IMG/VR virus record: IMGVR_UViG_2772190661_000001
Coordinates: 32,001-96,000 of that record
Length of the DNA: 64,000 nucleotides
From: a virus
Taxonomy: Duplodnaviria; Caudoviricetes
Reading direction: 5' to 3' (one strand)
Under the pieces are notes generated by a model. The model did not search any database, had not been told where the DNA came from, and was given only the letters and a program-made list of their open reading frames with translations. Below, piece after piece: positions 4,648 through 62,692 of this stretch (positions are counted from its first letter, which is position 1; each line of letters begins with the position of its first letter). The position numbers and the translations under genes are program-made.

Positions 4648-6630
4648 CTACGAGGAATCCCCCACCCAGCGCACCTCCAGCCGCGGACGACCACGGCCAA
4701 GGCTCACCTTCTCCAGCGTGTACTCCCCCGTAGCCACCAGCTCGCCAACCCACCCATCGATGTCATCGGCCTTCTCGTTGTTGCTGAACACCTGCTTGCC
4801 AATCTCCGTCCGGCCAGCCCGCCGGCCTTCACAGCCGTCCACGTACTCCTTGATCCGACCCGCATTGCGCGACACCCCTACCACCCGTCCCGCCGCCAGC
4901 AGATGCTCGATCGCCCACTCCCCAATCGCGATCGCGTCCCGCATCGTCGACTCCTCAATTCGATCGTCCGGGGTCATCCCGGCACCCAGATGCAACAGGG
5001 CTGCGACACGCAGAACTCGGGCCACGTGCTTGCCCGCCCACCCACGCACCTGACACAGGTCGCCGTCTCGCGACGGATCCATGCGCGGCTCGAGGACGTT
5101 CTGATAGTCAAGGTGCAGCTTCCACGCGCCACGGGTCAGGTCGATGACCGCCGACTCCGCCTCGATCGCCGCCTCCTCGGCTTGCCGGTCAACCAGCGCG
5201 TCATAGCCGACCAAGCTCTCCAGCAGCTCCGCCCACCAGCGCTTCAACCGCCGGCTCTGCGGCTCAGCCGGCACGTCGTCGATAAAGACCGACTCCCGCC
5301 CCTCACGCTTGCCGACCAGGTCGCCGGGCAACGAAACGAGAAAGCGGTTGATGAAGCCCGTCTCCTGCATGAGAGCGTTCTGCAGCATCTCGGCCACCAG
5401 TAGCGGCTGCGGCGAGATCGCCAGCGTCAGTGCGGCCCGACCGATCTGCCCGGCCTCGCGGGTGATCCGGGTCGGCTTGTACGGGGCGCAGTCGTAGCCC
5501 TTGAGGACAATCCCGAGGTTCGCCGTTCGGCCCGAGTACTGTCCACCCAGATTCCGCAGCAGCGTCCCCTCGTCGTCGATGACCGCGCCCGCGCCGAGGT
5601 TCGTCGACATGCGGTCGGCGAGCGCTTCCGGGCTGGTATCGCCGTCGAGCTCGACGACCGGCGCCGGTGGCGGGCTCTTCGCCAGGTCCTCGGCCTGCTG
5701 GCTGAGTCGTCGCGCGCGAGCCTTCAGGCCCTCTTTCTCCTCCAGGTCGGTCGTCACCGCCTTGCCTTTCGCTAGGACGTCCTCGATCTCGGCGGCGAGT
5801 CGCAGCTGCTCGCCCTCCACCCACTTTTCGTGCTGCTCGCGCAGCGTCCGGTTCGCCAGCCACAGCCCGTCGCGGAGTTCGGTGACCGGCGGCGACTTTG
5901 CGCTGCTGGACTCCATGCCGACCATCACGTACAGGTTCGTCGGCTGAATGAAGTCGTGGTCGCGGCGGACCAGAATGCGCGGGCCGGTCACGCCGGACAT
6001 GACACCGAGCATCATCAGGGCCGGCAGGTCCACCGGGACCTGCTTGCGCTCGGCCAAGTCGACCACGTACTCGCGCATCATCGGCGGCAGGTGCTCCACC
6101 GGAAACCGGCGGGCATGCCCGTGCCCTGCCGTGAGCGGCGTCGCTCCGGATCCTCGCTTGGCTCCGGGGGCCGGCTCGCCAATTTCTCCCTGGGCGTGCA
6201 GCCGCGCGGCGTCCGCGAGTGCAGCGGCGAGCGCTTCAGCGTTCCCGGATTTGGCTGCCTGCTGGACGCGGATGCCGACTTCCTCCGCGCGCCTCGTCCG
6301 GGCGGTGTCGGCAACACTTCGAGCATGCCAGGTGGCCGACGCGACCGTGGGCACCTCGGCGACGCAGCGCAGCAGGTAGGGGGCTCCACCGACACGCAGC
6401 AGGTCACCTGACCTGTGGAGCGTGTCGCCGACCGCCACTGCATCGGTGGGAGCTCCGTCAGAGCGGTTGTTGAGGACCGCTCTGAAGATCTCGCCGTGGA
6501 TCGGGCGCGCGAAGTCGTCGAAGGTCAGAATCGCCGCGAGGCTCGGAACACAGTCCGACTGCAGCATCATCGCGCCGAGCACGATTCTCTCGGACGCCTC
6601 CGGGTCTAAGCCGGTTGCGTTGCCGCTCAT
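4648..6630 (-). CDS. Replication protein: DnaB N-terminal-like domain fused to DUF3987 (YfjI-like) NTPase
   Basis: N-terminus ERIVLGAMM...TDAVAV...GGAPYL; FPVEHLP, NLYVMVG..SS.KS, DTSPEAL, DEG and GFINRFL motifs. Confidence 0.8.
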   Translation of the reverse strand: MSGNATGLDPEASERIVLGAMMLQSDCVPSLAAILTFDDFARPIHGEIFRAVLNNRSDGAPTDAVAVGDTLHRSGDLLRVGGAPYLLRCVAEVPTVASATWHARSVADTARTRRAEEVGIRVQQAAKSGNAEALAAALADAARLHAQGEIGEPAPGAKRGSGATPLTAGHGHARRFPVEHLPPMMREYVVDLAERKQVPVDLPALMMLGVMSGVTGPRILVRRDHDFIQPTNLYVMVGMESSSAKSPPVTELRDGLWLANRTLREQHEKWVEGEQLRLAAEIEDVLAKGKAVTTDLEEKEGLKARARRLSQQAEDLAKSPPPAPVVELDGDTSPEALADRMSTNLGAGAVIDDEGTLLRNLGGQYSGRTANLGIVLKGYDCAPYKPTRITREAGQIGRAALTLAISPQPLLVAEMLQNALMQETGFINRFLVSLPGDLVGKREGRESVFIDDVPAEPQSRRLKRWWAELLESLVGYDALVDRQAEEAAIEAESAVIDLTRGAWKLHLDYQNVLEPRMDPSRDGDLCQVRGWAGKHVARVLRVAALLHLGAGMTPDDRIEESTMRDAIAIGEWAIEHLLAAGRVVGVSRNAGRIKEYVDGCEGRRAGRTEIGKQVFSNNEKADDIDGWVGELVATGEYTLEKVSLGRGRPRLEVRWVGDSS

Positions 6631-53831: not shown

Positions 53832-54109
53832 AGCGCCACCACCAGCGCGGCAGCGGTCTCCTCGACCAGGGCGGCCCGGTCCAGCACCTCGACGTGGGTG
53901 AGGCTGACCGCGCCGGAGCAGCCCGAGATCCAGGCGACCGCGGTGTGCCCACCGAGGACCGTGGACGGGTGGTAGACCCGACCAACGCCGGACGGCGGGC
54001 CCTGGCGGCCACTCCGCCAGTAGCGGACCAGCATGCCGACCGGCGCCATCTCGTTGAACGCGTCCGCGGCGTCCTGCGCGGTGGCGGGGTTCTTCAGCTC
54101 GACGGTCAC
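53828..54109 (-). CDS. Hypothetical phage protein
   Basis: FN..PVG..VRYW...VLGGHTAVAW...GAVSLTHV. Confidence 0.6.
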   Translation of the reverse strand: MTVELKNPATAQDAADAFNEMAPVGMLVRYWRSGRQGPPSGVGRVYHPSTVLGGHTAVAWISGCSGAVSLTHVEVLDRAALVEETAAALVVAL

Positions 54110-54468
54110 AGCGCCACCGCCGTCGCGTCCCACGCGGCCTGGATCCGGGCGTGCGAGGCAGCCTGCGCCGCCGACCGGGCCGGGTCCGCGGCCAGCTCGG
54201 CGCGGGCCTGCTCGGCGTCGGCGCGCCGCTTTGCCTGCCCGGCCTGCAGCGTCTCGACGGCGGCAGCCCGCTCGTCCTCGTTCAGGTGCGCAACCGCGTC
54301 ACGGCGGGGCTTGTGGAACTGCACCTGATAGCCGGTGCGGCTGCGGCAGTGGATACCCGGCCTGGCGTTGCAGGTCTTGCACGTCTCGGTGATCGGGGCC
54401 AGCGCTGCCGCGGCCACGCGGCGGTAGAGGAGGAATGCGGCGCTCGGGCGCTCCGGGGCGATCGTCAT
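54106..54468 (-). CDS. Phage Zn-finger protein
   Basis: CKTCNARPGIHC...H..R. Confidence 0.6.
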   Translation of the reverse strand: MTIAPERPSAAFLLYRRVAAAALAPITETCKTCNARPGIHCRSRTGYQVQFHKPRRDAVAHLNEDERAAAVETLQAGQAKRRADAEQARAELAADPARSAAQAASHARIQAAWDATAVAL

Positions 54469-54899
54469 GCCGCACCGCCGACGAGCATCTGCGCGCGGAC
54501 GAACAGCACCTCGTCGTCAGCCCACGACGTCGGACCGGACCGGGCCGCGACGAACTCGCGGACGATACCCTCCAACGCCAGCTCGCGCGCCGACGGCACC
54601 GGGGCGGGCTCGCCGCGGTCGTCCGGGCCGCCGTCGAAGTAGGCGCCGGCGCACTTCGGCGACCCGAACAGCATCCCGGCCGGGTCTTCGAACACGGTCC
54701 GCCCGTCGTGCCCGGACAGGTCGGCGTCGGTCGCGTCCAGGAATTGGCGGCCGCACTGGCAGAGGTCGTCGGCGAACACGATCATCGTCCCGGCCGGGCG
54801 GGCGGCGAGGTCCGCGGCGATCTCCGGGTTCGGGTGCCAGGCGACACACCGGACCTCGACCGGGGTGGCGGGACGGCGGGCGTGCTTCGGGGCGGTCAT
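54465..54899 (-). CDS. Hypothetical phage protein
   Basis: GGAGG RBS; ATGA overlap. Confidence 0.5.
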   Translation of the reverse strand: MTAPKHARRPATPVEVRCVAWHPNPEIAADLAARPAGTMIVFADDLCQCGRQFLDATDADLSGHDGRTVFEDPAGMLFGSPKCAGAYFDGGPDDRGEPAPVPSARELALEGIVREFVAARSGPTSWADDEVLFVRAQMLVGGAA

Positions 54900-55333
54900 G
54901 CCGCCACCTCCTGGGTGTCGGCGGTCCACGGGCCGGCGTGCACACTGCGAGACACGGCGACCACGCCCGGGATCAGAACGGCCAAGTCACGTGCGGCCCG
55001 CTCGTCCTGCTGCGGCCGAACGACGCCGTTCGGGAAGATGGCCGCCCACTCGACCTGGGTGGTCGAGCCGTTCGGGGTGGGCGTCGCGGCCCAGCCCTTC
55101 GGGATCGCGGACAGCTGCAGGCCGACGGCGGCGAGTGCGGCCCGTAGGTCCTGGATGGAGGCGCGGCGCTCGCCGGCCTCGTGGGAGCGGTGCGTCGGGG
55201 CGAGCTTGCCGATCATCGCGGCGAACTTGTTGATGGACAGGCCGCGGGCTTCGCGCTGCTCGGCGACGAGGCGCCAGAGCGGGTCGGGCCCGGTGATATT
55301 GGTGGTTGTCGGTGTAGTCTGCTCAGCGAGCAT
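54896..55333 (-). CDS. XRE-HTH protein
   Basis: REARGLSINKFAAMIG...HEAGERR. Confidence 0.7.
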   Translation of the reverse strand: MLAEQTTPTTTNITGPDPLWRLVAEQREARGLSINKFAAMIGKLAPTHRSHEAGERRASIQDLRAALAAVGLQLSAIPKGWAATPTPNGSTTQVEWAAIFPNGVVRPQQDERAARDLAVLIPGVVAVSRSVHAGPWTADTQEVAA

Positions 55334-55404
55334 CTCGGCGTCCTCTCAGGTGGACGGTTGAGCTGTGAAGCCCTGGCCGGTCGGACGGCCGGGGCTTCCT
55401 TGCG

Positions 55405-55740
55405 TTAAGCCGTGGCGACGCGCTTGGCGCGGCTACGGCCGCGGGTGCGCATGCCGGCGGCGACCTGGCGCATGGTGTTGCTGTCCGCGATCCGCTTCGC
55501 TTCCGCGGCGTTGGCCGCTTCGGTCGCCTGCCGGGTGTAGGCCTCGGCAGCCTTGTAGATCTGCTCGCGGGTCATGCCGTACGTGCCCTTGCGGTTTACG
55601 TGGTCGATGCGGCCGGCCTTGCACTCGTCCATGACGGAGCGGACGGTCCAGCCGGTTAGGTACTCGACCTGTTCCAGGGTGTAGACGAACGGGTCCGGGG
55701 CGCCGGGGATGAATAGCGGCTGCTCGATGACGTCGGTCAT
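55405..55740 (-). CDS. Excisionase-like (MerR/HTH_17) DNA-binding protein
   Basis: YTLEQVEYLTGWTVRSVMDECKAGRI; follows cro. Confidence 0.65.
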   Translation of the reverse strand: MTDVIEQPLFIPGAPDPFVYTLEQVEYLTGWTVRSVMDECKAGRIDHVNRKGTYGMTREQIYKAAEAYTRQATEAANAAEAKRIADSNTMRQVAAGMRTRGRSRAKRVATA

Positions 55741-55979
55741 GCCGCGGCCGCCGTCGGCCCGGCCTTGAGGAGGTCGTCGTAGCTGACGCCGAGGGCGTCG
55801 GTGATGCGGCCGTAGGTCGCGGGCTTCACGGTGGGCCGCTGGCCGCGTTCGATCTGCGCGACGTAGGAGACGGACAGGCCGATCGTGTCGGCGAGCTGGG
55901 TGATCGTGAGGCGCTTCCGCTGGCGCTGTTGGCGCATCTTCGCCCCGTCGACGCGGGGGCTGGCGTGCATGGGCTCCAT
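55737..55979 (-). CDS. Cro-like XRE repressor, first gene of the early operon
   Basis: LTITQLADTIGLSVSYVAQIERG; TACGCT -10 just upstream. Confidence 0.85.
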   Translation of the reverse strand: MEPMHASPRVDGAKMRQQRQRKRLTITQLADTIGLSVSYVAQIERGQRPTVKPATYGRITDALGVSYDDLLKAGPTAAAA

Positions 55980-55993
55980 GAAGCAGAAGCGTA

Positions 55994-56016
55994 CAGGATT
56001 GAGCAGGATTGAGCAG
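55994..56016. promoter_or_regulatory. Tandem direct repeat over the cro promoter (operator candidate)
   Basis: CAGGATTGAG-CAGGATTGAG-CAG. Confidence 0.55.
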
Positions 56017-56103
56017 CACTTGTCGCCAGCCTGTCGCCCGAGCGTGTTGCGGCCGGCCGCGCGCTGCAGTCAGGCAGCTCTGCGCAGCAGAAACCAGGGC
56101 AGC

Positions 56104-56168
56104 AAAAAACGCCGTGCCCCCACGGTGCCCCTAGAGTTTCTAGGAGCCCCATGAGGGCACGGCGTTTT
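56104..56168 (-). terminator. Intrinsic terminator of the tRNA operon
   Basis: Long hairpin whose G-U pairs form on the minus strand, ending in U6. Confidence 0.8.
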
Positions 56169-56174
56169 AGCAGG

Positions 56175-56247
56175 TGCCTCTGGAGAGATTCGAACTCCCG
56201 ACACCCGGATCCGTAATCCGGTGCTCTATCCGCTGAGCTACAGAGGC
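56175..56247 (-). tRNA. tRNA-Arg(ACG)
   Basis: GCCTCTG acceptor stem; CCGGA-TTACGGA-TCCGG anticodon arm; GTTCGAATC T-loop. Confidence 0.92.
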
Positions 56248-56248
56248 G

Positions 56249-56342
56249 TGGAGGAGAGTGAGGGATTCGAACCCTCGGCGGAGGTGTTCGCCCCCGCTAC
56301 GGTGTAGCAAACCGCTGCCTTGGACCGCTCGGCCAACTCTCC
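56249..56342 (-). tRNA. tRNA-Ser(GCT)
   Basis: GGAGAGT/ACTCTCC acceptor stem; loop TTGCTAC; long variable arm; encoded CCA. Confidence 0.9.
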
Positions 56343-56359
56343 TTGCATTGCGAGAAACG

Positions 56360-56431
56360 CTGCGGGCGGAGGATTCGAACCTCCATCGTCCGGGTCAGAG
56401 CCGGATGTGCTGCCGGTTGCACCAGCCCGCA
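56360..56431 (-). tRNA. tRNA-Gln(CTG)
   Basis: TCCGG-CTCTGAC-CCGGA anticodon arm; GGTTCGAATCC. Confidence 0.9.
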
Positions 56432-56437
56432 CCGGGG

Positions 56438-56470
56438 CGTCCCGGGCCGTGATCGACACGGCCCGGGACG
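56438..56470. other. 14-bp hairpin between the HNH stop and tRNA-Gln
   Basis: CGTCCCGGGCCGTG / CACGGCCCGGGACG. Confidence 0.7.
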
Positions 56471-56908
56471 TCACAGGGCCATTGCCGCCCAGGTGGGGGC
56501 GACCGGCCGGAATCGCAGGGGCATGCGCGCCTCGACAGGCGTGCGGTCACCCTTGCGCTGGTTACAGGCGCCGCACGCGGCGGCCGTGTTCGCCCATGAG
56601 TTGCGGCCGCCGCGCGAGCGGGGCATCACGTGGTCGATCGTCGAGGCGTGGCCGCCGCAGTAGACGCAGCGACGGCCGTCCCGGACCAGCACGCCGGCCC
56701 GCGACCAGCCGGGGCCACGCGAGTGCCGCCAGCGCGTCACCACGTAGCTGACCAGCCGCACCACGGTCGGCACCGGCCAGACGCCTATCTGCGAGTCGGG
56801 GTGCGACTCGTGAACCTCCGCCACGCGGCGCACCAGCATCCGCACCGCGTGGCGGAGACTGACCCGGTGCAACGGGCCGAGGTCGGCGTTCAGCACCAGC
56901 ACGTCCAC
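56471..56908 (-). CDS. HNH endonuclease (McrA-like) inside the tRNA operon
   Basis: RD...CVYCG...TIDHVMPRSRGG.NSW.N...C..CN..K; AAGGAGG RBS. Confidence 0.92.
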   Translation of the reverse strand: MDVLVLNADLGPLHRVSLRHAVRMLVRRVAEVHESHPDSQIGVWPVPTVVRLVSYVVTRWRHSRGPGWSRAGVLVRDGRRCVYCGGHASTIDHVMPRSRGGRNSWANTAAACGACNQRKGDRTPVEARMPLRFRPVAPTWAAMAL

Positions 56909-56941
56909 CGGATCCTCCTTTCATGGGTTTGTCGAGGTGAG

Positions 56942-57012
56942 AGCGGTTACGGGGAGTCGAACCCCGGTCTGCTGCATGGCAAGCAGCCGCACTGCCGTTG
57001 TGCTACAACCGC
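56942..57012 (-). tRNA. tRNA-Gly(GCC)
   Basis: GCGGTTG acceptor; GCTGC-TTGCCAT-GCAGC anticodon arm. Confidence 0.9.
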
Positions 57013-57016
57013 ATCG

Positions 57017-57091
57017 TCGGGATGCCCGGATTCGAACCGGGGGCCTTCCGCTCCCAAAGCGGACGCGCTGACCAAGCTGCGCCACATCCCG
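57017..57091 (-). tRNA. tRNA-Pro(TGG)
   Basis: CGGGATG acceptor; TCCGC-TTTGGGA-GCGGA anticodon arm. Confidence 0.92.
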
Positions 57092-57105
57092 TACTTAACC
57101 ATCCG

Positions 57106-57149
57106 CTATGGAATTCTCAATCATCATTTCCGTGCGCATAAAATGCGCA
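57106..57149 (-). promoter_or_regulatory. BoxB/BoxA-like antitermination element
   Basis: Hairpin TGCGCAT-TTT-ATGCGCA followed by TGATGATTGAGAATTCCATAG, resembling actinobacterial rrn BoxA. Confidence 0.45.
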
Positions 57150-57159
57150 GGACAAAGCG

Positions 57160-57232
57160 CACGGGCGGCAGGAGTCGAACCCGCAACCTACGGTTTTGGA
57201 GGCCGTTGCTCTACCAGTTGAGCTACACCCGT
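57160..57232 (-). tRNA. tRNA-Trp(CCA)
   Basis: ACGGGTG acceptor; loop CTCCAAA; GGTTCGACTCC. Confidence 0.9.
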
Positions 57233-57242
57233 ATGGGATACG

Positions 57243-57276
57243 AAAAACCGCCCGGTCCGATGTCGGACTCAGGCGG
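57243..57276 (-). terminator. Attenuator terminator upstream of the first tRNA
   Basis: CCGCC..GTCCGA/TCGGAC..GGCGG followed by U5, between the leader ORF and tRNA-Trp. Confidence 0.7.
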
Positions 57277-57298
57277 CGCGTCTAGCCGGGTAGGCGTA

Positions 57299-57394
57299 CT
57301 ACCCCAGGCGGCGCCGCTTGTCGGGACCTCGGACGGATGAACTCGGCTGCAGGCGCCAGGCAACACTCTTCGCCATTACTACGTTCTTCGACAT
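57299..57394 (-). CDS. Leader peptide (31 aa) MSKNVVMAKSVAWRLQPSSSVRGPDKRRRLG
   Basis: Perfect AAGGAGG RBS 8 nt before the ATG; lies between promoter and terminator. Confidence 0.7.
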   Translation of the reverse strand: MSKNVVMAKSVAWRLQPSSSVRGPDKRRRLG

Positions 57395-57441
57395 CGCCAT
57401 CGCCTCCTTCGTTTCGTCCGTCTCGCTCGGTGCTGGAATAC

Positions 57442-57479
57442 ACGTTAGTGACCCCGCACAACACGCACAACCAATTAAA
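57442..57479 (-). promoter_or_regulatory. WhiB7/WblC-type promoter
   Basis: TTTAATT, 2 bp, TTGTGC (-35), 17 bp, TAACGT (-10). Confidence 0.6.
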
Positions 57480-57532
57480 CGCGATTCCCACGGTACGCCC
57501 GCGGGAGCACCCGACAATCGCTGGTAGGGTGC

Positions 57533-58099
57533 GTGATCATGCGGCTCGGGAAGCAGATGCGCGCCCGCCGGAGCAGTGAGCTCGCGGCCCTGCGCGCCGA
57601 GGTCGCCGCGCTCCGCGCCGAGGTGGCGGCGCTCCGCCCGTCCCCGCCGCCGCCCGCCGACGACCTCGCACAGGATTACCGCACCTGGCGGGACGGCCCG
57701 CTGCTCCGGCTCGCGAAGGTGCTCACCCGCCGCGCCGGGTCCGACGCGCCCGCACCGGCCCGCGGCGCCGCGATGCACGCGCTCTGCCGGGTGCTCCTGA
57801 CCCCGGCCACCGACGCGGAGACCCGGCACCGCCTGGTCGGCGACACCGTCACCGACCTGCTGGGCGACACCTCGTGGCGCAACGACGCGGCGCTCGTCCG
57901 TACCCTCATCGAGGCTCGTGACGGCGCCACACCGCTGCGCGACGCCGTCGCCGTGCACGAGTGGCTCTGGCCGGCCGGGGGCGTCGCGCTCGACCCGGCC
58001 CGGCACGACATCCTGCCCGGCTCCGAGGGCGGCCGCGTCGTCGCGACCGCCGCCCCGGGCCTCCGTGGTGCCGTGTTACCGCTCGTCGTGGCCGGGTGA
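57533..58099 (+). CDS. Hypothetical protein with coiled coil and GrpE-like C-terminus
   Basis: LAALRAEV repeats; LDPARHD...VV....PGL resembles the GrpE beta domain. Confidence 0.45.
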   Translation: MIMRLGKQMRARRSSELAALRAEVAALRAEVAALRPSPPPPADDLAQDYRTWRDGPLLRLAKVLTRRAGSDAPAPARGAAMHALCRVLLTPATDAETRHRLVGDTVTDLLGDTSWRNDAALVRTLIEARDGATPLRDAVAVHEWLWPAGGVALDPARHDILPGSEGGRVVATAAPGLRGAVLPLVVAG

Positions 58100-58103
58100 G
58101 CCG

Positions 58104-60053
58104 CTACTGCTGATCCATGGTGGCGATCGCGAGACCGTTACCGAACGTGACCGACCACACCTGAGACCGCTCGGCATCCGACGGATCGGCCATGTCGGCC
58201 GCGAAGTCGTTGAGCGCGTAGGGGCCGCCGTTGATCGTGCGGATCTCGGCCTCCTCCGCGGGCGCGATCCACAGCGGACCCAGCCCGTCGCTGTTGCCCG
58301 CGTTCTTGTCCGCCGCCTCGCGGATCCGGAGCTTGAGGTGGCCGCCGGCCGTGCTCGCGGAGTCGACGACCATCAGGAACGGGCCGGGCCCGCTGTAGTC
58401 GGTGCCGGGCAGCTCCAGGTACGCGTCCGGGTCGTCCGGGTTGGCCTCCTTGACGGCCTGCACCACGCGCGGGTCGAGCGGCTCGCCCCGGTTGTTCCGC
58501 GGGCCGGTGCCGACCGGCGTGGCGCTGGGGGTGGCGGCGGGCGTGTTCGACGGAGCGCCGCTGGTCGGGCCGTTCTGCGGCGACCCGATCTTCTCGTCGC
58601 CACGGTTCCCGTAGGCGACATATCCGGCGCCCGCCGCGGCCAGCACCAGCAGGATCACCAGCGCGACCGGCCAGCGGCGCTTCTTCCTCGGCGGCGGACC
58701 GGCCGGCACCGCCGCGGCCCCGGTCGCCCTGCGCCCCGGCCTGCCCGGCACCTCGAACTGCGAGTACGGCCGCGTCGGCGCGAGCCCGTCGTCGGCCTGC
58801 GGGGCCCGCGACGGCACCGGCTGGGCCGGCGCACCGCGCGGGGGTGTCAACGGCGCCATAGTGACCGGCGGGGCGTGCAGCACGTTCGCCAGGCCCGGAC
58901 CGGACGGCGACGCCGGATAGGCCGGCGGCGCGGAGACCTGGCCCGCGAGCGCCGCGGCCACCTGCTCCCGCGTCACGCGCGCGGTCCGGTCCGCGTCCAG
59001 GCCACCCACGGTCTCGGCCGTGACCGCGCCGTTCGCCACCGCCAGCTCCGGCTGCTCGATCACGGCCGGCGCCACGCTCAGCGCGCGGTGCAGCATGGAC
59101 GCGACCAGCGGCACCCGGCTCGCGCCGCCGACCAGCAGCACACCCTTCAGCGCGGACGCCTCCACGCCGGCCTCGCGCAGCACCAGGCGCGTGGTCGCCA
59201 CCGTACGGTCGATCACCGGCCGGGCCAGCGCCTCGAACTGCTCGCGGCCGAGCGGCGCCTCCACCTCCAGCAGCGGCAGGTGGATGTGGGTGGCCGAGGA
59301 CCGGGACAGCATCTCCTTGCCGGTACGCACGTCCGCCCACAGTGCACGCGAGGCCCGCCGGTCCGCCGCGTCGGCCGGCGCGGTCAGGCGCGCCCAGGCC
59401 GCCGGGTCCTTCGGCGCGTACACCGCGCCGAGGTGCGCGACGATCGCCGCGTCCAGGTCCAGGCCACCGCCGTCGGACAGCCCCGACGTGGCCAGCAGTG
59501 CGAAACCGTCCCCGGTCCGCCGGATCACCGACGCGTCGTACGTGCCCGCGCCCAGGTCACAGACGACCACGCTGCCGCCGACCGGGATCGTGGTCCCGGC
59601 CGTGCTCGCGAAGTACGCCGCCGCCGCGACCGGCTCGCTGACCAGCCGCACGTTGCGCAGGCCCGCACGCGCCGCCGAGTCCAGCAGCACGTCCCGCCGC
59701 CGCTTGCCCCAGGCCGCCGGGTGCGTGATCGTCACCCGGTCCGGCGTGCCCTGCACCTGGTCCGCCACCCGCCGCAGCACGGCCGCGAACATGTCCGGCA
59801 CCGCCACCTCGACGCCCCCGAGCAGCACGGACTGCTCGTCGATGCGCTGCTTCGGGTACGGCTCATAGCTCTCCGGCGCCGTCCGGGCCGCGTGCGCCGC
59901 ATCCGGCCCCACCAGCAGCCGGCCGCCCGGATCCGCACAGACCCCCGACGGCAGCGACGGCGCGCCGTCGAACAGCACCGGGCGTACCCCCAGCGGACCA
60001 TCGAACACTGCCACCGTGCTGGAGGTGCCGAAATCTATGCAGAGGTGCGTCAC
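58104..60053 (-). CDS. Hsp70-family protein with Pro-rich linker, TM and extracellular domain
   Basis: IDFGTSSTVA, THPAAW, SEPVAAA, DLGAGTYD, GGLDLD and LVGGASRVP motifs. Confidence 0.88.
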   Translation of the reverse strand: MTHLCIDFGTSSTVAVFDGPLGVRPVLFDGAPSLPSGVCADPGGRLLVGPDAAHAARTAPESYEPYPKQRIDEQSVLLGGVEVAVPDMFAAVLRRVADQVQGTPDRVTITHPAAWGKRRRDVLLDSAARAGLRNVRLVSEPVAAAAYFASTAGTTIPVGGSVVVCDLGAGTYDASVIRRTGDGFALLATSGLSDGGGLDLDAAIVAHLGAVYAPKDPAAWARLTAPADAADRRASRALWADVRTGKEMLSRSSATHIHLPLLEVEAPLGREQFEALARPVIDRTVATTRLVLREAGVEASALKGVLLVGGASRVPLVASMLHRALSVAPAVIEQPELAVANGAVTAETVGGLDADRTARVTREQVAAALAGQVSAPPAYPASPSGPGLANVLHAPPVTMAPLTPPRGAPAQPVPSRAPQADDGLAPTRPYSQFEVPGRPGRRATGAAAVPAGPPPRKKRRWPVALVILLVLAAAGAGYVAYGNRGDEKIGSPQNGPTSGAPSNTPAATPSATPVGTGPRNNRGEPLDPRVVQAVKEANPDDPDAYLELPGTDYSGPGPFLMVVDSASTAGGHLKLRIREAADKNAGNSDGLGPLWIAPAEEAEIRTINGGPYALNDFAADMADPSDAERSQVWSVTFGNGLAIATMDQQ

Positions 60054-60455
60054 CGAACCAAGATAGCGGCCCCTCGCCCCACGCGCGTCCCAGGTGGACC
60101 GCCCTCCCCGGCCGTCCCGCAGGTCCTGCACCCACGATCGACTCGTCGCTGACCTGCTGCGACGGCGGCAGCATCCAGCGGGCATGCCCTCGGTGATCGC
60201 GGACCGCCGGTCCGGCACGGTGTCCGCGGTGCCGTAGGCGTGGGTCGGCCTCGCCCGGTCCACCCCGTCAAGATCTTCAAGCACGGACCAGAGCCCTGAC
60301 CAGGGGGTACGACATCCCGCCGCGCACCGGCACGCGCGGCAGCAAACGTGAGCGGCGGCGGGAGTCGCGTGCTCTTCGGTGACCAGCGGCGGCACCGGCT
60401 CCGATCGGGGATCGGAAGCGGAGCGCCAGCGGAGTCTTCCGAACCCCGGAGGTTG

Positions 60456-60577
60456 GCCCGCGGGAGCAACGCTGCGGGACCACGCCGGAAGCGGGCACGT
60501 CGTGGGGTCCGGGGCTCGGGCCCCGGGGAAACACAGCGCCCGCGGGAGCAACGCTGCCGGACCACGCCGGAAGCGGG
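60456..60577. repeat. Two 40-bp direct repeats (1 mismatch) with a 42-bp spacer
   Basis: GCCCGCGGGAGCAACGCTGCSGGACCACGCCGGAAGCGGG at 60456-60495 and 60538-60577. Confidence 0.8.
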
Positions 60578-61156: not shown

Positions 61157-62692
61157 GTGATGCGAAATCCCTCGGATTGGGCAGGTAGCACTGACAGCGG
61201 CTCTCCCAAGTACGCCGTGGCCTACATACGGGTGTCCCGGGTGGGCGGACGGGACGATGACCTCATCTCTCCGGAGTTGCAGCGATTCCAGATCGATGAG
61301 CTTGCCCGGCGCGAAGGGATCAAGATCGTCGAGGAGATGCAGGATCTAGACCGGTCCGGACGCGACTTCACCAAACGTCGCGTCGAGGAGATCATCGACG
61401 GAATCCGGAACGGCAAGTGGCAGTACGTCCTGCTCTGGAAGTGGTCCCGCTGGGGCCGCAACATGCGCCAGTCTCAGCTGTACCTGGGTCGGGCTGAGGA
61501 CGCTGGCGGCGTCGTACGCGCAGCGACGGAGGATTTCGACCCGGGAACAACTATCGGCCGCTTCAGCCGAGACCAGATGCTGTCCTTCGCGCAACTGCAA
61601 TCGGACATGATCGGTGACAGTTGGCGTGATACCCAGGACCGTCGTCGCCGCAATGGCCTACCTCATAACGGTCGGCCTCGGTTCGGGTACGAGTACAGCC
61701 GGAAGACCGGCTATACCCCTCATCCTGAAACCGGGCCACTGCTGGCGAGCTTCTATGAGCGGTATGTTGCCGGGGAGTCCTTCTACAAGCTCGTCCTGGA
61801 GTTGAACCGCAGCGGCATCCAGCCGCCCCAGACGGATGTTTGGAGTCAGACGGCGCTCTCGGTTCTCATGGATACGGGTTTCGCGGCTGGGCTGATTCGA
61901 GAGAAGTCTTCCCAACAGCGTCGCCGTGAGGGCAAGGCCACCAGGCGCACGCTCGACTCGTACGATATCTGGCGCGTAGGCGCACATGAGCCGTTGATTT
62001 CAGAGCCGGTCTGGGTTCGGTATCTCGAACGCCGCAAGCAACAGGCGAAGCTTCCTCCGAGGTCTCGGTCGCCGAAGTACGCCTTGTCGTCTGTCATGCG
62101 GTGTGCACTGTGCGGAGCGTCGATGACAGTGATGCATGGAAGGAACGGGCGTCAGTGGTCGTGTTCGAAGGCACGAGCGTCCCGGCACCACGAGCCGAAC
62201 TACATTTCGGACGTCCGGGCAAGTCAAGAGGCTTTGGACTGGTTGTTGTCCAATGTGCCGGAGAAGTCTAGTGGGGCGGTAACGGAGGAGGCTCGTCGGC
62301 TGGAGCGAGGTCGTGTGGCACGTGACCGCGTGGCCCGGCTGTCCGAGCAGGACAAGAAGATCAAGGGGCGGCGAGCGAAGCTGATCGACCTGTACTCCGA
62401 TGATTTGGTGACGCGCGAGGAGTTTGAGGAGAGGCGTGCATCGCTTCTGGTGGAGTTGGAGGTGGTGCAGGCTGCCCTCGCTGAGGCGCGAGAGGATGAG
62501 CGGCGTTCGGGGGTAAGTTATGTCCGGGCCTTTTCGACACTGGCTCAGGAGTGGGATCTTTGGGAACCGGATAAGCGGCGGGAGGCATTGCTTCAGTTGG
62601 TGGGTAGTGTGACGGTTCTCCCGAAGAGTGCGAACGAATCTAAGCGACTCGTCGTTGTTCCAATATGGGATAGAACCGGCGAGGTGGGATAG
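61157..62692 (+). CDS. Large serine recombinase (integrase)
   Basis: YIRVS catalytic motif, D.DRSG, SRWGRN, PRFGY, Zn ribbon CALCG and coiled coil. Confidence 0.93.

What the first reader, a model, noticed from the sequence alone, without database searches (positions are those of the whole stretch)
57299..57394. Leader peptide contains a codon readable by every tRNA of the operon it precedes
Seen: the uORF codons include TGG (Trp-CCA), CGC x3 and CGA (Arg-ACG), CAG (Gln-CTG), CCG (Pro-TGG by wobble), AGT x2 (Ser-GCT) and GGT (Gly-GCC). Fourteen of the last 19 residues are W/R/Q/P/S/G, and AGT and CGA are uncommon in high-GC genes. It ends in KRRR, which contains the +X+ macrolide arrest motif. 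A GGGTAG/CTACCC hairpin covers the stop codon, and GCGCCGCCTG occurs both in the uORF end and in the terminator 5' arm, so alternative folds are possible. Inference: a feedback attenuator that senses loss of exactly these tRNAs. Caveat: R/P/G/S are common in GC-rich ORFs.
Basis: partly seen in the sequence, partly recalled or inferred. Interest (0 to 1): 0.75.

Follow-up and report, generated by a model that had tools for sequence, protein, structure and literature searches.

The report
Codon-matched leader gating a tRNA array
A tiny translated "test" gene followed by a transcription stop signal sits in front of a cluster of spare tRNA genes, and across 72 related loci its codons change together with the tRNAs encoded behind it, which suggests that the cell makes these tRNAs when ribosomes run short of them.

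Summary
On the minus strand there is an AT-tract promoter, a strong ribosome-binding site, a 31-codon uORF (57394-57299), a hairpin over its TAG stop and a U-tailed terminator. Fifteen bases further on, tRNA-Trp opens a six-tRNA array with an embedded HNH gene.

In this window alone the codon match is weak. All six anticodons have a readable codon, but shuffles give that with P = 0.076, and 20 of 30 codons are read by other tRNAs.

Relatives decide it. All 72 distinct arrays collected (3-38 tRNAs, mostly Micromonosporaceae) have the same leader:
- a uORF of about 42 codons;
- a stop 17-26 nt before the terminator in 71 of 72;
- a peptide that evolves neutrally yet is unusually rich in amino-acid types;
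- 91% of array anticodons with a readable codon in their own uORF.

In phylogenetically independent pairs, gain or loss of a tRNA goes with gain or loss of its amino acid in the uORF (31 concordant, 3 discordant). This also holds per anticodon (75 v 24).

Best reading: a whiB7-like ribosome-mediated attenuator tuned to the array's own tRNAs. "Exactly these tRNAs" and the macrolide-arrest motif are not supported. I found no published account. Earlier AI notes of this scan describe similar leaders before phage tRNA arrays.

The parts
57442..57479 (-). Promoter-like region: AT tract TTTAATT (57479-57473), -35 TTGTGC (57470-57465), 17-nt spacer, -10 TAACGT (57447-57442). This is the layout described for WblC/WhiB7-dependent promoters.
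   Evidence: Read. TTGNNN-N16-19-TANNNT lies upstream of the uORF in 57 of 72 loci (shuffles 1.9). In 54 of them at least 5 of 7 bases just upstream of the -35 are A/T (shuffles 0.2). The WblC motif GAAAWY 3 nt upstream of the -35 is from PMC7157823. Binding was not tested.
57403..57410 (-). Shine-Dalgarno sequence GAAGGAGG, 8 nt before the ATG at 57394
   Evidence: An SD-like element of at least 4 nt precedes the chosen start in all 72 loci, but the leader finder required one, so this count is not an independent result.
57299..57394 (-). Leader ORF (uORF): 31 codons plus TAG. An alternative in-frame start lies at 57400.
   Evidence: A homologous uORF was found in all 72 distinct arrays, median 42 codons. 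Substitutions are spread evenly over the three codon positions.
57311..57317 (-). Candidate antiterminator strand GCGGCGC (codons -7 to -4 of the uORF). It can pair with GCGCCGC at 57279-57273, the 5' flank and start of the terminator's 5' arm.
   Evidence: Fold of the transcript before the 3' arm is made. RNAduplex places the best site at -22 to -9 from the stop. In the swap test the window's z is -1.25.
57285..57309 (-). Hairpin over the stop codon: GCC-(TG)-GGGTAG / loop TACGC / CTACCC-GGC
   Evidence: The pre-3'-arm folds of 27 loci show a hairpin at or just after the stop, built from different sequences in different clades.
57243..57276 (-). Intrinsic terminator: CCGCCTGAGTCCG / ACAT / CGGACCGGGCGG followed by TTTTT. 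Its tail ends 10 nt before tRNA-Trp.
   Evidence: dG -25.6. The stop-to-5'-arm gap is 22 nt here and 17-26 nt in 71 of 72 loci.
57159..57232 (-). tRNA-Trp (CCA), first gene of the array
   Evidence: tRNA-Trp comes first in 50 of 72 arrays.
56941..57091 (-). tRNA-Pro (TGG) 57091-57016 and tRNA-Gly (GCC) 57012-56941
56471..56908 (-). HNH endonuclease gene embedded in the array, with its own AGGAGG ribosome-binding site
   Evidence: Pfam HNH_5 and HNH. Orthologues at 58-94% identity sit inside arrays of relatives.
56173..56431 (-). tRNA-Gln (CTG) 56431-56359, tRNA-Ser (GCT) 56342-56249, tRNA-Arg (ACG) 56247-56173
56103..56125 (-). Terminator-like hairpin with a T run that closes the operon

Best explanation
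This is a ribosome-mediated (leader-peptide) transcription attenuator placed in front of an accessory tRNA gene array.

Proposed mechanism: transcription starts at a WhiB7/WblC-type promoter and a ribosome translates the short uORF.
- If the ribosome reaches the stop quickly, it covers the last uORF codons and opens the stop-codon hairpin. The terminator's 5' arm is then free to pair with its 3' arm, and RNA polymerase stops 10-15 nt before tRNA-Trp.
- If the ribosome lags or stalls earlier in the uORF, for lack of a tRNA to read a codon, the last 4-7 uORF codons pair with the terminator's 5' arm. The stop hairpin stacks on top of this helix. The terminator cannot form, and the tRNAs and the HNH gene are transcribed.

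The uORF is kept rich in different codons, and those codons track the anticodons encoded in the array. The switch therefore reports preferentially on the tRNAs that the array can replace, which makes a supply-on-demand feedback loop. In this window the array has shrunk to six tRNAs and the leader to 31 codons. All parts look intact.

Shown here: the anatomy, its conservation in 72 distinct arrays, neutral peptide evolution with a maintained frame, excess codon diversity, codon-anticodon co-variation, and the possibility and co-variation of the alternative pairing.

Inferred: translation of the uORF, stalling, antitermination, and the physiological trigger (tRNA cleavage or depletion, antibiotics, or starvation).
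For: Anatomy in the window.

Conservation:
- The same layout was found in 29 loci by hand.
- An automatic finder reproduced all 29 and found it in 52 of 53 further loci; the 53rd has fewer than three tRNAs.
- That gives 72 distinct arrays of 3-38 tRNAs. The uORF is 38-47 codons in 68, and the stop-to-terminator gap is 17-26 nt in 71.
- Two more arrays in another family have it.
- Among 59 HNH loci with no tRNA genes next to the HNH gene, only 1 keeps a full-size leader, though 52 keep the promoter.

Not a protein gene: substitutions are spread evenly over codon positions, and indels between relatives are whole codons.

Codon diversity: 17.2 amino-acid types per uORF, against 14.5 +/- 1.9 in gene windows and 13.2 in random small ORFs. 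Against own-composition shuffles the mean z is +1.8, cluster-level t = 8.8.

Coverage: 1032 of 1133 array anticodons (91%) have a readable codon in their own uORF. Against shuffles and gene windows the cluster-level t is 7.6 and 8.1; in L122, 34 of 35 are covered against 23.9 +/- 2.2.

Co-variation:
- A null that preserves row and column totals gives z = 3.7 with one locus per cluster.
- treekit independent pairs: 13.5 same direction v 1.2 opposite.
- Thirty independent pairs: 31 concordant, 3 discordant, 113 unchanged (p = 8e-7). Control amino acids give 22 v 28. Pair level is 16 v 1.
- Anticodon level: 75 v 24 (p = 3e-7), and 29 v 7 when another isoacceptor stays in both arrays.
- The concordant residues lie upstream of the last 6 codons (2% there against 14% expected).

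Alternative fold:
- The terminator's 5' arm pairs with the uORF's last codons in 27 of 27 pre-3'-arm folds.
- These folds are more stable than shuffles, mean z -1.6.
- The own 5' arm pairs better than swapped ones (z -0.64, p = 1.5e-4). The negative control gives z +0.07 and the terminator-arm control -1.39.

Precedent: in the whiB7/wblC leader, uORF translation favours a Rho-independent terminator and impaired translation favours an antiterminator, and uORF composition sets which starvation is sensed (PMC11550727; bioRxiv 10.1101/2023.06.02.543512).
Against: - There is no expression, Term-seq, Ribo-seq or reporter data, so translation and read-through are inferred.
- In this window the match is not significant on its own (P = 0.076). 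Its uORF shows no excess diversity (z = -0.3) and its antiterminator fold is no better than shuffles (z = -0.18).
- Every uORF also holds codons for tRNAs that the array lacks: 0-15 amino-acid types in the first 29 loci. The sensor is therefore broader than the array.
- Most tRNA differences between sister loci (113 of 147) come with no change in the uORF.
- Shuffled G-rich uORF ends also pair with the C-rich 5' arm (mean 8 nt), so the antiterminator is not proven per locus.
- Cells within one pair are not fully independent, and the tree rests on a 430-nt HNH gene.
- Lys tRNAs are often present without a Lys codon in the uORF (4 of 14 arrays with a Lys tRNA).
Confidence: 0.68

Rival explanations
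1. This is a generic translation-stress attenuator of the whiB7 kind. The uORF is simply diverse so that any slowdown of translation (antibiotics, any amino-acid starvation) opens the array. Its codons are not tuned to the array's tRNAs.
For: The uORFs hold 13-20 amino-acid types whatever the array size, including types with no tRNA in the array. uORFs from other clusters also cover most anticodons of a given array; the own-versus-other advantage is only +6% of anticodons, t = 2.1. The promoter looks WhiB7/WblC-type. In the window, 20 of 30 codons are not readable by the six tRNAs.
Against: Identity-specific co-variation remains after controlling for uORF diversity and amino-acid frequency (z = 3.7). 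It also holds in independent pairs with a symmetric control (31:3 against 22:28) and among synonymous codons (29:7). A purely generic sensor does not predict any of this.
Confidence: 0.2
2. This is an independent small-protein gene with its own terminator that merely lies upstream of a separately transcribed tRNA operon.
For: There is a strong RBS, an ATG, and an efficient-looking terminator directly after the ORF.
Against: The peptide evolves without purifying selection: differences are spread about 1:1:1 over codon positions and nonsynonymous changes dominate. Only 15 nt separate the terminator stem from tRNA-Trp here, which leaves no room for a promoter. The stop-to-terminator distance is fixed at 17-26 nt in 71 of 72 loci. 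The full-size ORF disappears when the tRNAs are lost, while the promoter stays.
Confidence: 0.04
3. This is a chance open frame inside a conserved structured 5' leader that works at RNA level only, for example as a processing or pause element or as a sensor that binds tRNA directly.
For: In 70% GC DNA a 42-codon frame stays open by chance about 45% of the time (my estimate from base composition). The 3' part of the leader is constrained by RNA pairing.
Against: A start codon, an open frame and a stop in one fixed place are present in all 72 loci; a Shine-Dalgarno-like element also precedes every start, but the finder required one. Length differences between relatives are whole codons, for example 45 v 62 and 31 v 46 codons. 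Co-variation is in codon-anticodon terms and holds within the reading frame. No Rfam family, T-box included, matches the leader.
Confidence: 0.05

Closest known systems
whiB7/wblC 5' leader of actinomycetes (uORF plus Rho-independent terminator; Lee, Lee & Roe 2022, as summarised in PMC11550727; Poulton et al., bioRxiv 10.1101/2023.06.02.543512)
   Same: Both occur in the same phylum. Both have an AT-tract promoter of the WhiB7/WblC type, a translated uORF of tens of codons with many amino-acid types, and an intrinsic terminator. Complete translation favours termination and impaired translation favours an antiterminator. The uORF's composition decides which shortage is sensed.
   Different: Here the regulated genes are tRNAs plus an HNH nuclease, not a transcription factor. 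The leader is not homologous to this genome's own whiB7 leader. Its codons co-vary with the anticodons encoded downstream, whereas whiB7 uORFs are reported as alanine-enriched.
Leader-peptide attenuators of amino-acid operons (trpL, hisL, pheL, leuL, thrL, ilv leaders of enterobacteria; ilvB uORF of Corynebacterium, PMC10272879)
   Same: A short leader ORF carries codons that correspond to the product of the operon. A terminator and antiterminator compete, and the position of the ribosome decides between them.
   Different: Those leaders use runs of one to three amino acids and control biosynthetic enzymes, and what is limiting is charged tRNA through amino-acid supply. Here there are single codons for up to 20 amino acids (34 of 35 anticodons in one locus), and the operon supplies the tRNAs themselves. 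Co-variation extends to synonymous codons.
tRNA array units with an embedded HNH gene (Tran et al. 2015, PMC4758250; Morgado & Vicente 2018, PMC5966550; M. avium plasmids, PMC12803027) and the stress-induced trn operon of Anabaena (PMC8421152)
   Same: These are clusters of accessory tRNA genes redundant with housekeeping ones, and an HNH endonuclease gene is linked or embedded. The Anabaena operon is silent and is induced by translation inhibitors. A related HNH (42-52% identity) lies on mycobacterial and cyanobacterial plasmids.
   Different: None of these papers mentions a uORF, leader peptide or attenuator. Anabaena's control was mapped to repeats over the promoter's -10 box and start site. 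The window's array (6 tRNAs) falls below the 20-gene definition of an array unit.
T-box riboswitches
   Same: This is a 5' leader with terminator/antiterminator competition that responds to the state of a specific tRNA.
   Different: A T-box binds uncharged tRNA directly, needs no translation, and controls synthetase and amino-acid genes. No T-box or other Rfam match was found here.

Membership tests
Ribosome-mediated (leader-peptide) transcription attenuator | Short ORF with a ribosome-binding site in the 5' leader of the regulated genes | tested here: met
   GAAGGAGG, 8 nt, then ATG and 31 codons. An equivalent uORF was found in all 72 distinct arrays.
Ribosome-mediated (leader-peptide) transcription attenuator | Intrinsic terminator between the leader ORF and the first regulated gene | tested here: met
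   GC-rich hairpin with dG -25.6 plus TTTTT, 15 nt before tRNA-Trp. Found in every locus analysed.
Ribosome-mediated (leader-peptide) transcription attenuator | Alternative pairing that sequesters a terminator arm and that a ribosome at the end of the ORF would prevent | tested here: inconclusive
   The 5' arm pairs with the last uORF codons in 27 of 27 folds. Mean z against shuffles is -1.6, and the swap test gives p = 1.5e-4. However, shuffled ends also pair, and the window's own z is only -0.18.
Ribosome-mediated (leader-peptide) transcription attenuator | Leader codons correspond to what the operon supplies | tested here: met
   91% of array anticodons are covered. Independent pairs give 31:3 for amino acids and 75:24 for anticodons.
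Ribosome-mediated (leader-peptide) transcription attenuator | Read-through rises when ribosomes stall in the leader | not testable with these tools
   This needs reporter fusions, Term-seq or in vitro transcription-translation.
WhiB7/WblC regulon promoter | AT-rich motif (GAAAWY-like) about 3 nt upstream of the -35 hexamer | tested here: met
   TTTAATT-GG-TTGTGC-N17-TAACGT in the window. This architecture is present in 54 of 72 loci against 0.2 in shuffles. The motif is as given in PMC7157823.
WhiB7/WblC regulon promoter | WblC/WhiB7 binding and dependence of transcription on it | not testable with these tools
   This needs ChIP or a whiB7 mutant. The genome does have a whiB7 orthologue with an AT hook.
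tRNA array unit (Tran et al. 2015) | At least 20 tRNA genes at a density of at least 2 per kb | tested here: not met
   The window has 6 tRNAs in 1.06 kb. Relatives with 20-38 tRNAs meet the definition.
Macrolide-dependent arrest peptide (+X+ motif) | Conserved [RK]-x-[RK] at the stalling site, placed so that a stall there induces the downstream genes | tested here: not met
   The motif is in the last 8 residues of only 21 of 72 uORFs. In the window it lies on the antiterminator strand, where a stalled ribosome would favour termination.
T-box riboswitch | Specifier loop and T-box sequence recognised by the Rfam model | tested here: not met
   No match in 54000-60000 at E <= 1.
Conserved small protein | Purifying selection on the peptide (excess of synonymous change) | tested here: not met
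   Differences are evenly spread over codon positions, and nonsynonymous codon changes outnumber synonymous ones in every pair.

The most novel reading that the evidence does not exclude
Accessory tRNA arrays of actinomycetes are guarded by a multi-codon 'inventory' leader. This is a translated test sequence that carries about one codon for nearly every tRNA encoded downstream, and it co-evolves with that set down to the isoacceptor. Depletion or cleavage of any one of those tRNAs (for example by anticodon nucleases or toxins, or under translation stress) stalls the ribosome and opens the array. That would be a feedback circuit that senses tRNA supply itself rather than amino acids, layered on WhiB7 control.
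Probability: 0.55. Interest if true: 0.88.

Novelty: new variant of a known kind. Interest (0 to 1): 0.8.

Why it matters
How accessory tRNA arrays are switched on is unknown. The literature calls their role unclear or a "putative antidefense system" (PMC12803027). The one studied case, Anabaena, is induced by translational stress through a promoter element (PMC8421152).

A leader whose codons track the array's anticodons would give these arrays a defined input: shortage of the very tRNAs they encode. It would extend classical attenuation from amino-acid supply to tRNA supply. It would also add a second, specific gate to the WhiB7 translation-stress response of actinomycetes.

The idea makes sharp, cheap predictions. 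Recode one codon and the specificity of induction should change. It also offers a compact natural sensor of tRNA availability. The co-variation at synonymous codons is the surprising part, because an amino-acid sensor would not need it.

Tried and rejected
- Close relatives in the phage collection: only single-tRNA matches.
- HNH relatives in IMG/VR viral contigs: only two distant HNH hits. This array family was not found in phage data with these queries.
- Rfam on the leader: nothing.
- Homology of the array leader to this genome's whiB7 leader: none apparent. The whiB7 uORF is long and unrelated.
- RNAduplex energy of the uORF against the terminator's 5' arm, compared with mononucleotide shuffles, per locus: not significant in most loci, because GC-rich shuffles pair too. 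Only the position of the best site was informative.
- Macrolide +X+ arrest motif as a family feature: rejected.
- General-decay explanation of the co-variation (small arrays simply have degraded leaders): rejected by the symmetric control of 22 v 28.
- Mycobacterial plasmid arrays with the related HNH: they have a different gene order and a roughly 95-108-codon upstream ORF without a canonical terminator. I did not analyse them further and they are not counted as members.
- Other families of the order: 18 of 20 sampled HNH loci had no tRNA genes on the HNH strand.
- A first automatic uORF rule (the most upstream start) over-extended several uORFs and picked a wrong frame once. It was replaced by the rule, which reproduces all 29 manual picks.
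I redid it by coordinates.
- Loci of the genomes flagged as unpublished (G043, G093, G133, G164, G537, G705) were not fetched.

Full report
**1. What is in the window**

The window is a 70% GC actinomycete chromosome, G000:C4:348041-412040. The best HNH match is a Catenuloplanes genome. All features below lie on the minus strand, in this order:
- an AT tract, TTTAATT (57479-57473);
- a -35 hexamer, TTGTGC, a 17-nt spacer and a -10 hexamer, TAACGT (57470-57442);
- a ribosome-binding site, GAAGGAGG (57410-57403);
- an ATG at 57394, opening a 31-codon frame that ends at TAG 57301-57299;
- a hairpin, GGGTAG/CTACCC, that contains the stop codon;
- a terminator, CCGCCTGAGTCCG-ACAT-CGGACCGGGCGG-TTTTT (57276-57243, dG -25.6 kcal/mol);
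- 10 nt after the T run, tRNA-Trp(CCA), then tRNA-Pro(TGG) and tRNA-Gly(GCC);
- an HNH endonuclease gene (56908-56471; Pfam HNH_5 and HNH);
- tRNA-Gln(CTG), tRNA-Ser(GCT), tRNA-Arg(ACG), and a closing terminator.

This includes the 10-nt repeat GCGCCGCCTG (57314-57305 and 57279-57270). AGT and CGA are rare in this genome, at 2.0% of Ser codons and 2.5% of Arg codons. No Rfam family matches the leader.

**2. Is the window's codon match more than chance?**

On its own it barely is. In composition-matched, stop-free shuffles of the uORF, all six anticodons find a readable codon in 7.6% of trials. All six amino acids occur in 27%. The "14 of the last 19 residues" statistic has P = 0.015, but that stretch was chosen after looking.

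Only 10 of the 30 codons are readable by the six tRNAs. The uORF's 13 amino-acid types are what shuffles give (z = -0.3).

**3. Relatives**

A DNA search of related genomes found the same unit in the same genus and in other genera. A protein-anchored scan with the HNH gene found it again. The arrays there range from 5 to 35 tRNAs.

In 29 loci inspected by hand the layout is the same. There is a promoter with an AT tract, a Shine-Dalgarno sequence, a uORF of about 40 codons and a GC-rich terminator ending in ...GGGCGG(C)TTTT. Then comes the first tRNA, which is usually Trp.

I then sampled 400 genomes of the family and fetched 53 more loci. A rule-based leader finder reproduced all 29 manual picks and found a leader in 52 of the 53 new loci. 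The remaining one has fewer than three tRNAs.

After removal of duplicates there are 72 distinct arrays of 3-38 tRNAs. Their leaders have these properties:
- median uORF length 42 codons, with 68 of 72 between 38 and 47;
- a gap of 17-26 nt from the stop to the terminator's 5' arm in 71 of 72;
- ATG starts in 64;
- stop codons TAG 41, TGA 21, TAA 10.

Two further arrays with the same leader occur in another family of the order. Members also occur in Umezawaea and Amycolatopsis.

HNH loci that lack neighbouring tRNA genes show the opposite pattern. Fifty-two of 59 keep the AT-tract promoter, but only one keeps a full-size leader. The leader therefore goes with the tRNAs, not with the HNH gene.

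**4. The uORF is translated-looking but is not a protein gene**

Between close relatives, substitutions fall about equally on the three codon positions. Nonsynonymous codon changes outnumber synonymous ones in every pair. Even so, the start, the frame and the place of the stop are kept, and length differences are whole codons (31 v 46 and 45 v 62 codons).

This is the signature of a regulatory leader peptide. The act and the path of translation matter; the peptide itself does not.

**5. Codon content**

The uORFs are unusually diverse. They hold 17.2 amino-acid types in about 42 residues. Windows of this genome's likely genes hold 14.5 +/- 1.9, and random small ORFs hold 13.2 +/- 2.3. Against shuffles of each uORF's own nucleotides the mean z is +1.8, and the cluster-level t is 8.8.

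Of 1133 array anticodons, 1032 (91%) have a readable codon in their own uORF. In 29 loci every anticodon has one. In the locus held here as L122, a 40-codon uORF covers 34 of 35 anticodons, where shuffles give 23.9 +/- 2.2.

uORFs from unrelated clusters also cover a given array well. The own-versus-other advantage is only +6% of anticodons (t = 2.1). Much of the effect is therefore general diversity.

**6.

- (a) With one locus per uORF cluster, I used a null that keeps each uORF's number of amino-acid types and each amino acid's frequency across uORFs. The overlap between array and uORF still exceeds expectation (z = 3.7, p < 0.01 in all 12 resamplings).
- (b) On a tree of the embedded HNH gene, treekit's independent pairs, summed over 19 amino acids, give 13.5 changes in the same direction against 1.2 in the opposite direction.
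- (c) In 30 non-overlapping sister pairs whose arrays differ, I took the amino acids whose tRNA is present in one member only. The uORF carries that amino acid only in that same member 31 times and only in the other member 3 times; 113 times there is no difference (p = 8e-7). At pair level the count is 16 v 1 (p = 3e-4).
- Control for (c): amino acids whose tRNA state is the same in both members differ symmetrically, 22 in the bigger-array member against 28 in the smaller. A general joint decay of array and leader therefore does not explain the signal.
- (d) Per anticodon the count is 75 concordant against 24 discordant (p = 3e-7). When the amino acid keeps another isoacceptor in both arrays it is still 29 against 7 (p = 3e-4).

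So the match reaches synonymous codons. That points to tRNA supply rather than amino-acid supply as the thing sensed.

The concordant residues lie upstream in the uORF (median 19 codons before the stop). Only 2% fall in the last six codons, against 14% expected. Part of that may simply reflect the RNA constraint on the last codons.

**7. The switch**

I folded the transcript as it exists before the terminator's 3' arm is made. In 27 of 27 loci the 5' arm pairs with the last one to ten uORF codons and encloses the stop-codon hairpin, giving one long stem. The best duplex site for the 5' arm falls in the last part of the uORF, or across its stop, in 24 of 27 loci.

These folds are more stable than folds with dinucleotide-shuffled uORF ends (mean z -1.6; 19 of 27 below -1). 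Shuffled ends also pair, however, so single loci prove nothing, and the window's own z is -0.18.

A swap test supports co-evolution. Each uORF end pairs better with its own 5' arm than with those of unrelated loci (mean z -0.64; 49 of 72; p = 1.5e-4). An upstream uORF segment shows nothing (z +0.07). The terminator's own two arms, as a positive control, give z -1.39.

The widely conserved ...G-R-W-x-x-stop ending (CGG TGG) is thus best read as the RNA strand complementary to the CCGCC/CCACC 5' arm. The stop-codon hairpin is made of different sequences in different clades.

The inferred logic is that of the whiB7/wblC leader. Full translation to the stop removes the antiterminator and allows termination. 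A lagging or stalled ribosome leaves the antiterminator in place (PMC11550727; bioRxiv 10.1101/2023.06.02.543512).

**8. Context**

The promoter layout is TTGNNN-N16-19-TANNNT with an AT-rich tract just upstream of the -35. It is present in 54 of 72 loci, against 0.2 in shuffles. It fits the WblC/WhiB7 target motif reported for Streptomyces, where six tRNA genes are among the direct targets (PMC7157823).

The genome has a whiB7 orthologue with its own, unrelated uORF-terminator leader. A two-layer control is therefore plausible but untested: WhiB7 at the promoter, and the codon-matched leader after it.

**9. What does not hold**

- "Exactly these tRNAs" is not supported. All leaders also carry codons for tRNAs that the array lacks, and the window's leader does so for seven amino-acid types.
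- The +X+ arrest motif is not conserved (21 of 72). It also sits where a stalled ribosome would favour termination.
- This window's copy is a reduced member: six tRNAs and a leader that is 15 codons shorter than its closest relative's.

**10. Novelty**

Full-text searches found no paper that links tRNA arrays with WhiB7, a uORF, a leader peptide or an attenuator. The array papers that I searched for these terms do not mention one.

Earlier AI notes of this scan, which are unpublished and which I did not check, report leader-peptide attenuators in front of phage tRNA arrays. They also report a uORF switch before spare tRNA arrays with an HNH-RtcB module in other genomes. The scan has therefore seen this kind of thing before on other DNA. 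I read those notes after my own analysis, and I do not count them as evidence.

The kind of mechanism (ribosome-mediated attenuation) is known. The regulated genes (tRNAs), the many-codon inventory design and the codon-anticodon co-evolution are new as far as I can tell.

**11. Limits**

- All evidence is comparative.
- The tree rests on a short gene.
- Cells within a pair are not fully independent.
- Arrays interrupted by insertions of more than 3 kb may be under-counted.
- Wobble rules were simplified.
Their loci were not fetched, and they enter only the tallies.

Noticed in passing
window 56174-56218 and G000:C4:312341-312385 (35.7 kb before the window start): An exact 45-nt copy of the 3' end of the array's last gene, tRNA-Arg, lies 91.8 kb away on the same strand. 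These look like the att sites of a roughly 92-kb integrated element that used the array's tRNA-Arg as its target. Window positions 1-56173, including the HTH genes next to the array, would then be inside that element.
   Followed up: no
loci L033-L108 (HNH loci with no tRNA genes next to the HNH gene), about 460 nt upstream of the HNH start: Most Actinoplanes and Paractinoplanes genomes keep the HNH gene and the AT-tract promoter (52 of 59) but have lost the neighbouring tRNAs. With them the full-size uORF is lost: 1 of 59 keeps it, 19 keep a short uORF plus terminator, 15 keep a hairpin only, and 24 have none.
   Followed up: partly
L183 (M. intracellulare subsp. chimaera plasmid NZ_CP084587.1) 5470-6033; L184 (Mycolicibacterium sp. 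TY66 pTY66_01) 5430-5985: These plasmid arrays of 27-28 tRNAs have an embedded HNH at 45% identity to the window's, and a different gene order. They are preceded by a roughly 95-108-codon ORF, rich in amino-acid types, that starts just after a TACCGT box and may be leaderless. No canonical terminator follows. This may be a different kind of leader.
   Followed up: partly
L128 893-1812 (G000:C10, about 154.5-155.4 kb): The genome's whiB7/wblC orthologue (AT hook RKRPRGRPRK) has a long upstream ORF (up to 129 codons) and a GC-rich hairpin with a T run before its start. This fits the known whiB7 attenuator. It is unrelated in sequence to the array leader.
   Followed up: partly
window 57145-57162 (minus strand), spacer between tRNA-Trp and tRNA-Pro: The only long AT-rich spacer inside the array holds a terminator-like hairpin, GTGCGC...GCGCAT, followed by TTTTAT. 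Its role is unknown; it could be an internal attenuation or processing site.
   Followed up: no
72 array leaders (data): Trp codons are frequent in the uORFs: 1.78 per uORF, at least one in 71 of 72 and at least two in 48. tRNA-Trp is the first gene in 50 of 72 arrays. The uORF stop is TAG in 41 of 72 loci and usually lies in the 5' arm of the stop hairpin.
   Followed up: partly
plasmid hits H44, H45 and others: Homologues of the embedded HNH (about 44% identity) lie on plasmids of the cyanobacteria Acaryochloris, Nostoc and Tolypothrix. These are the group in which an HNH gene is reported next to long tRNA arrays (PMC8421152). In the one Acaryochloris stretch I fetched, no tRNA lies within 7 kb.
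   Followed up: partly
window 61157-62692 (+) and 58104-60551 (-): A large serine recombinase (Resolvase, Recombinase and zinc-ribbon domains) and an Hsp70/MreB-like ATPase with a long low-complexity tail flank the leader side of the array.
   Followed up: no
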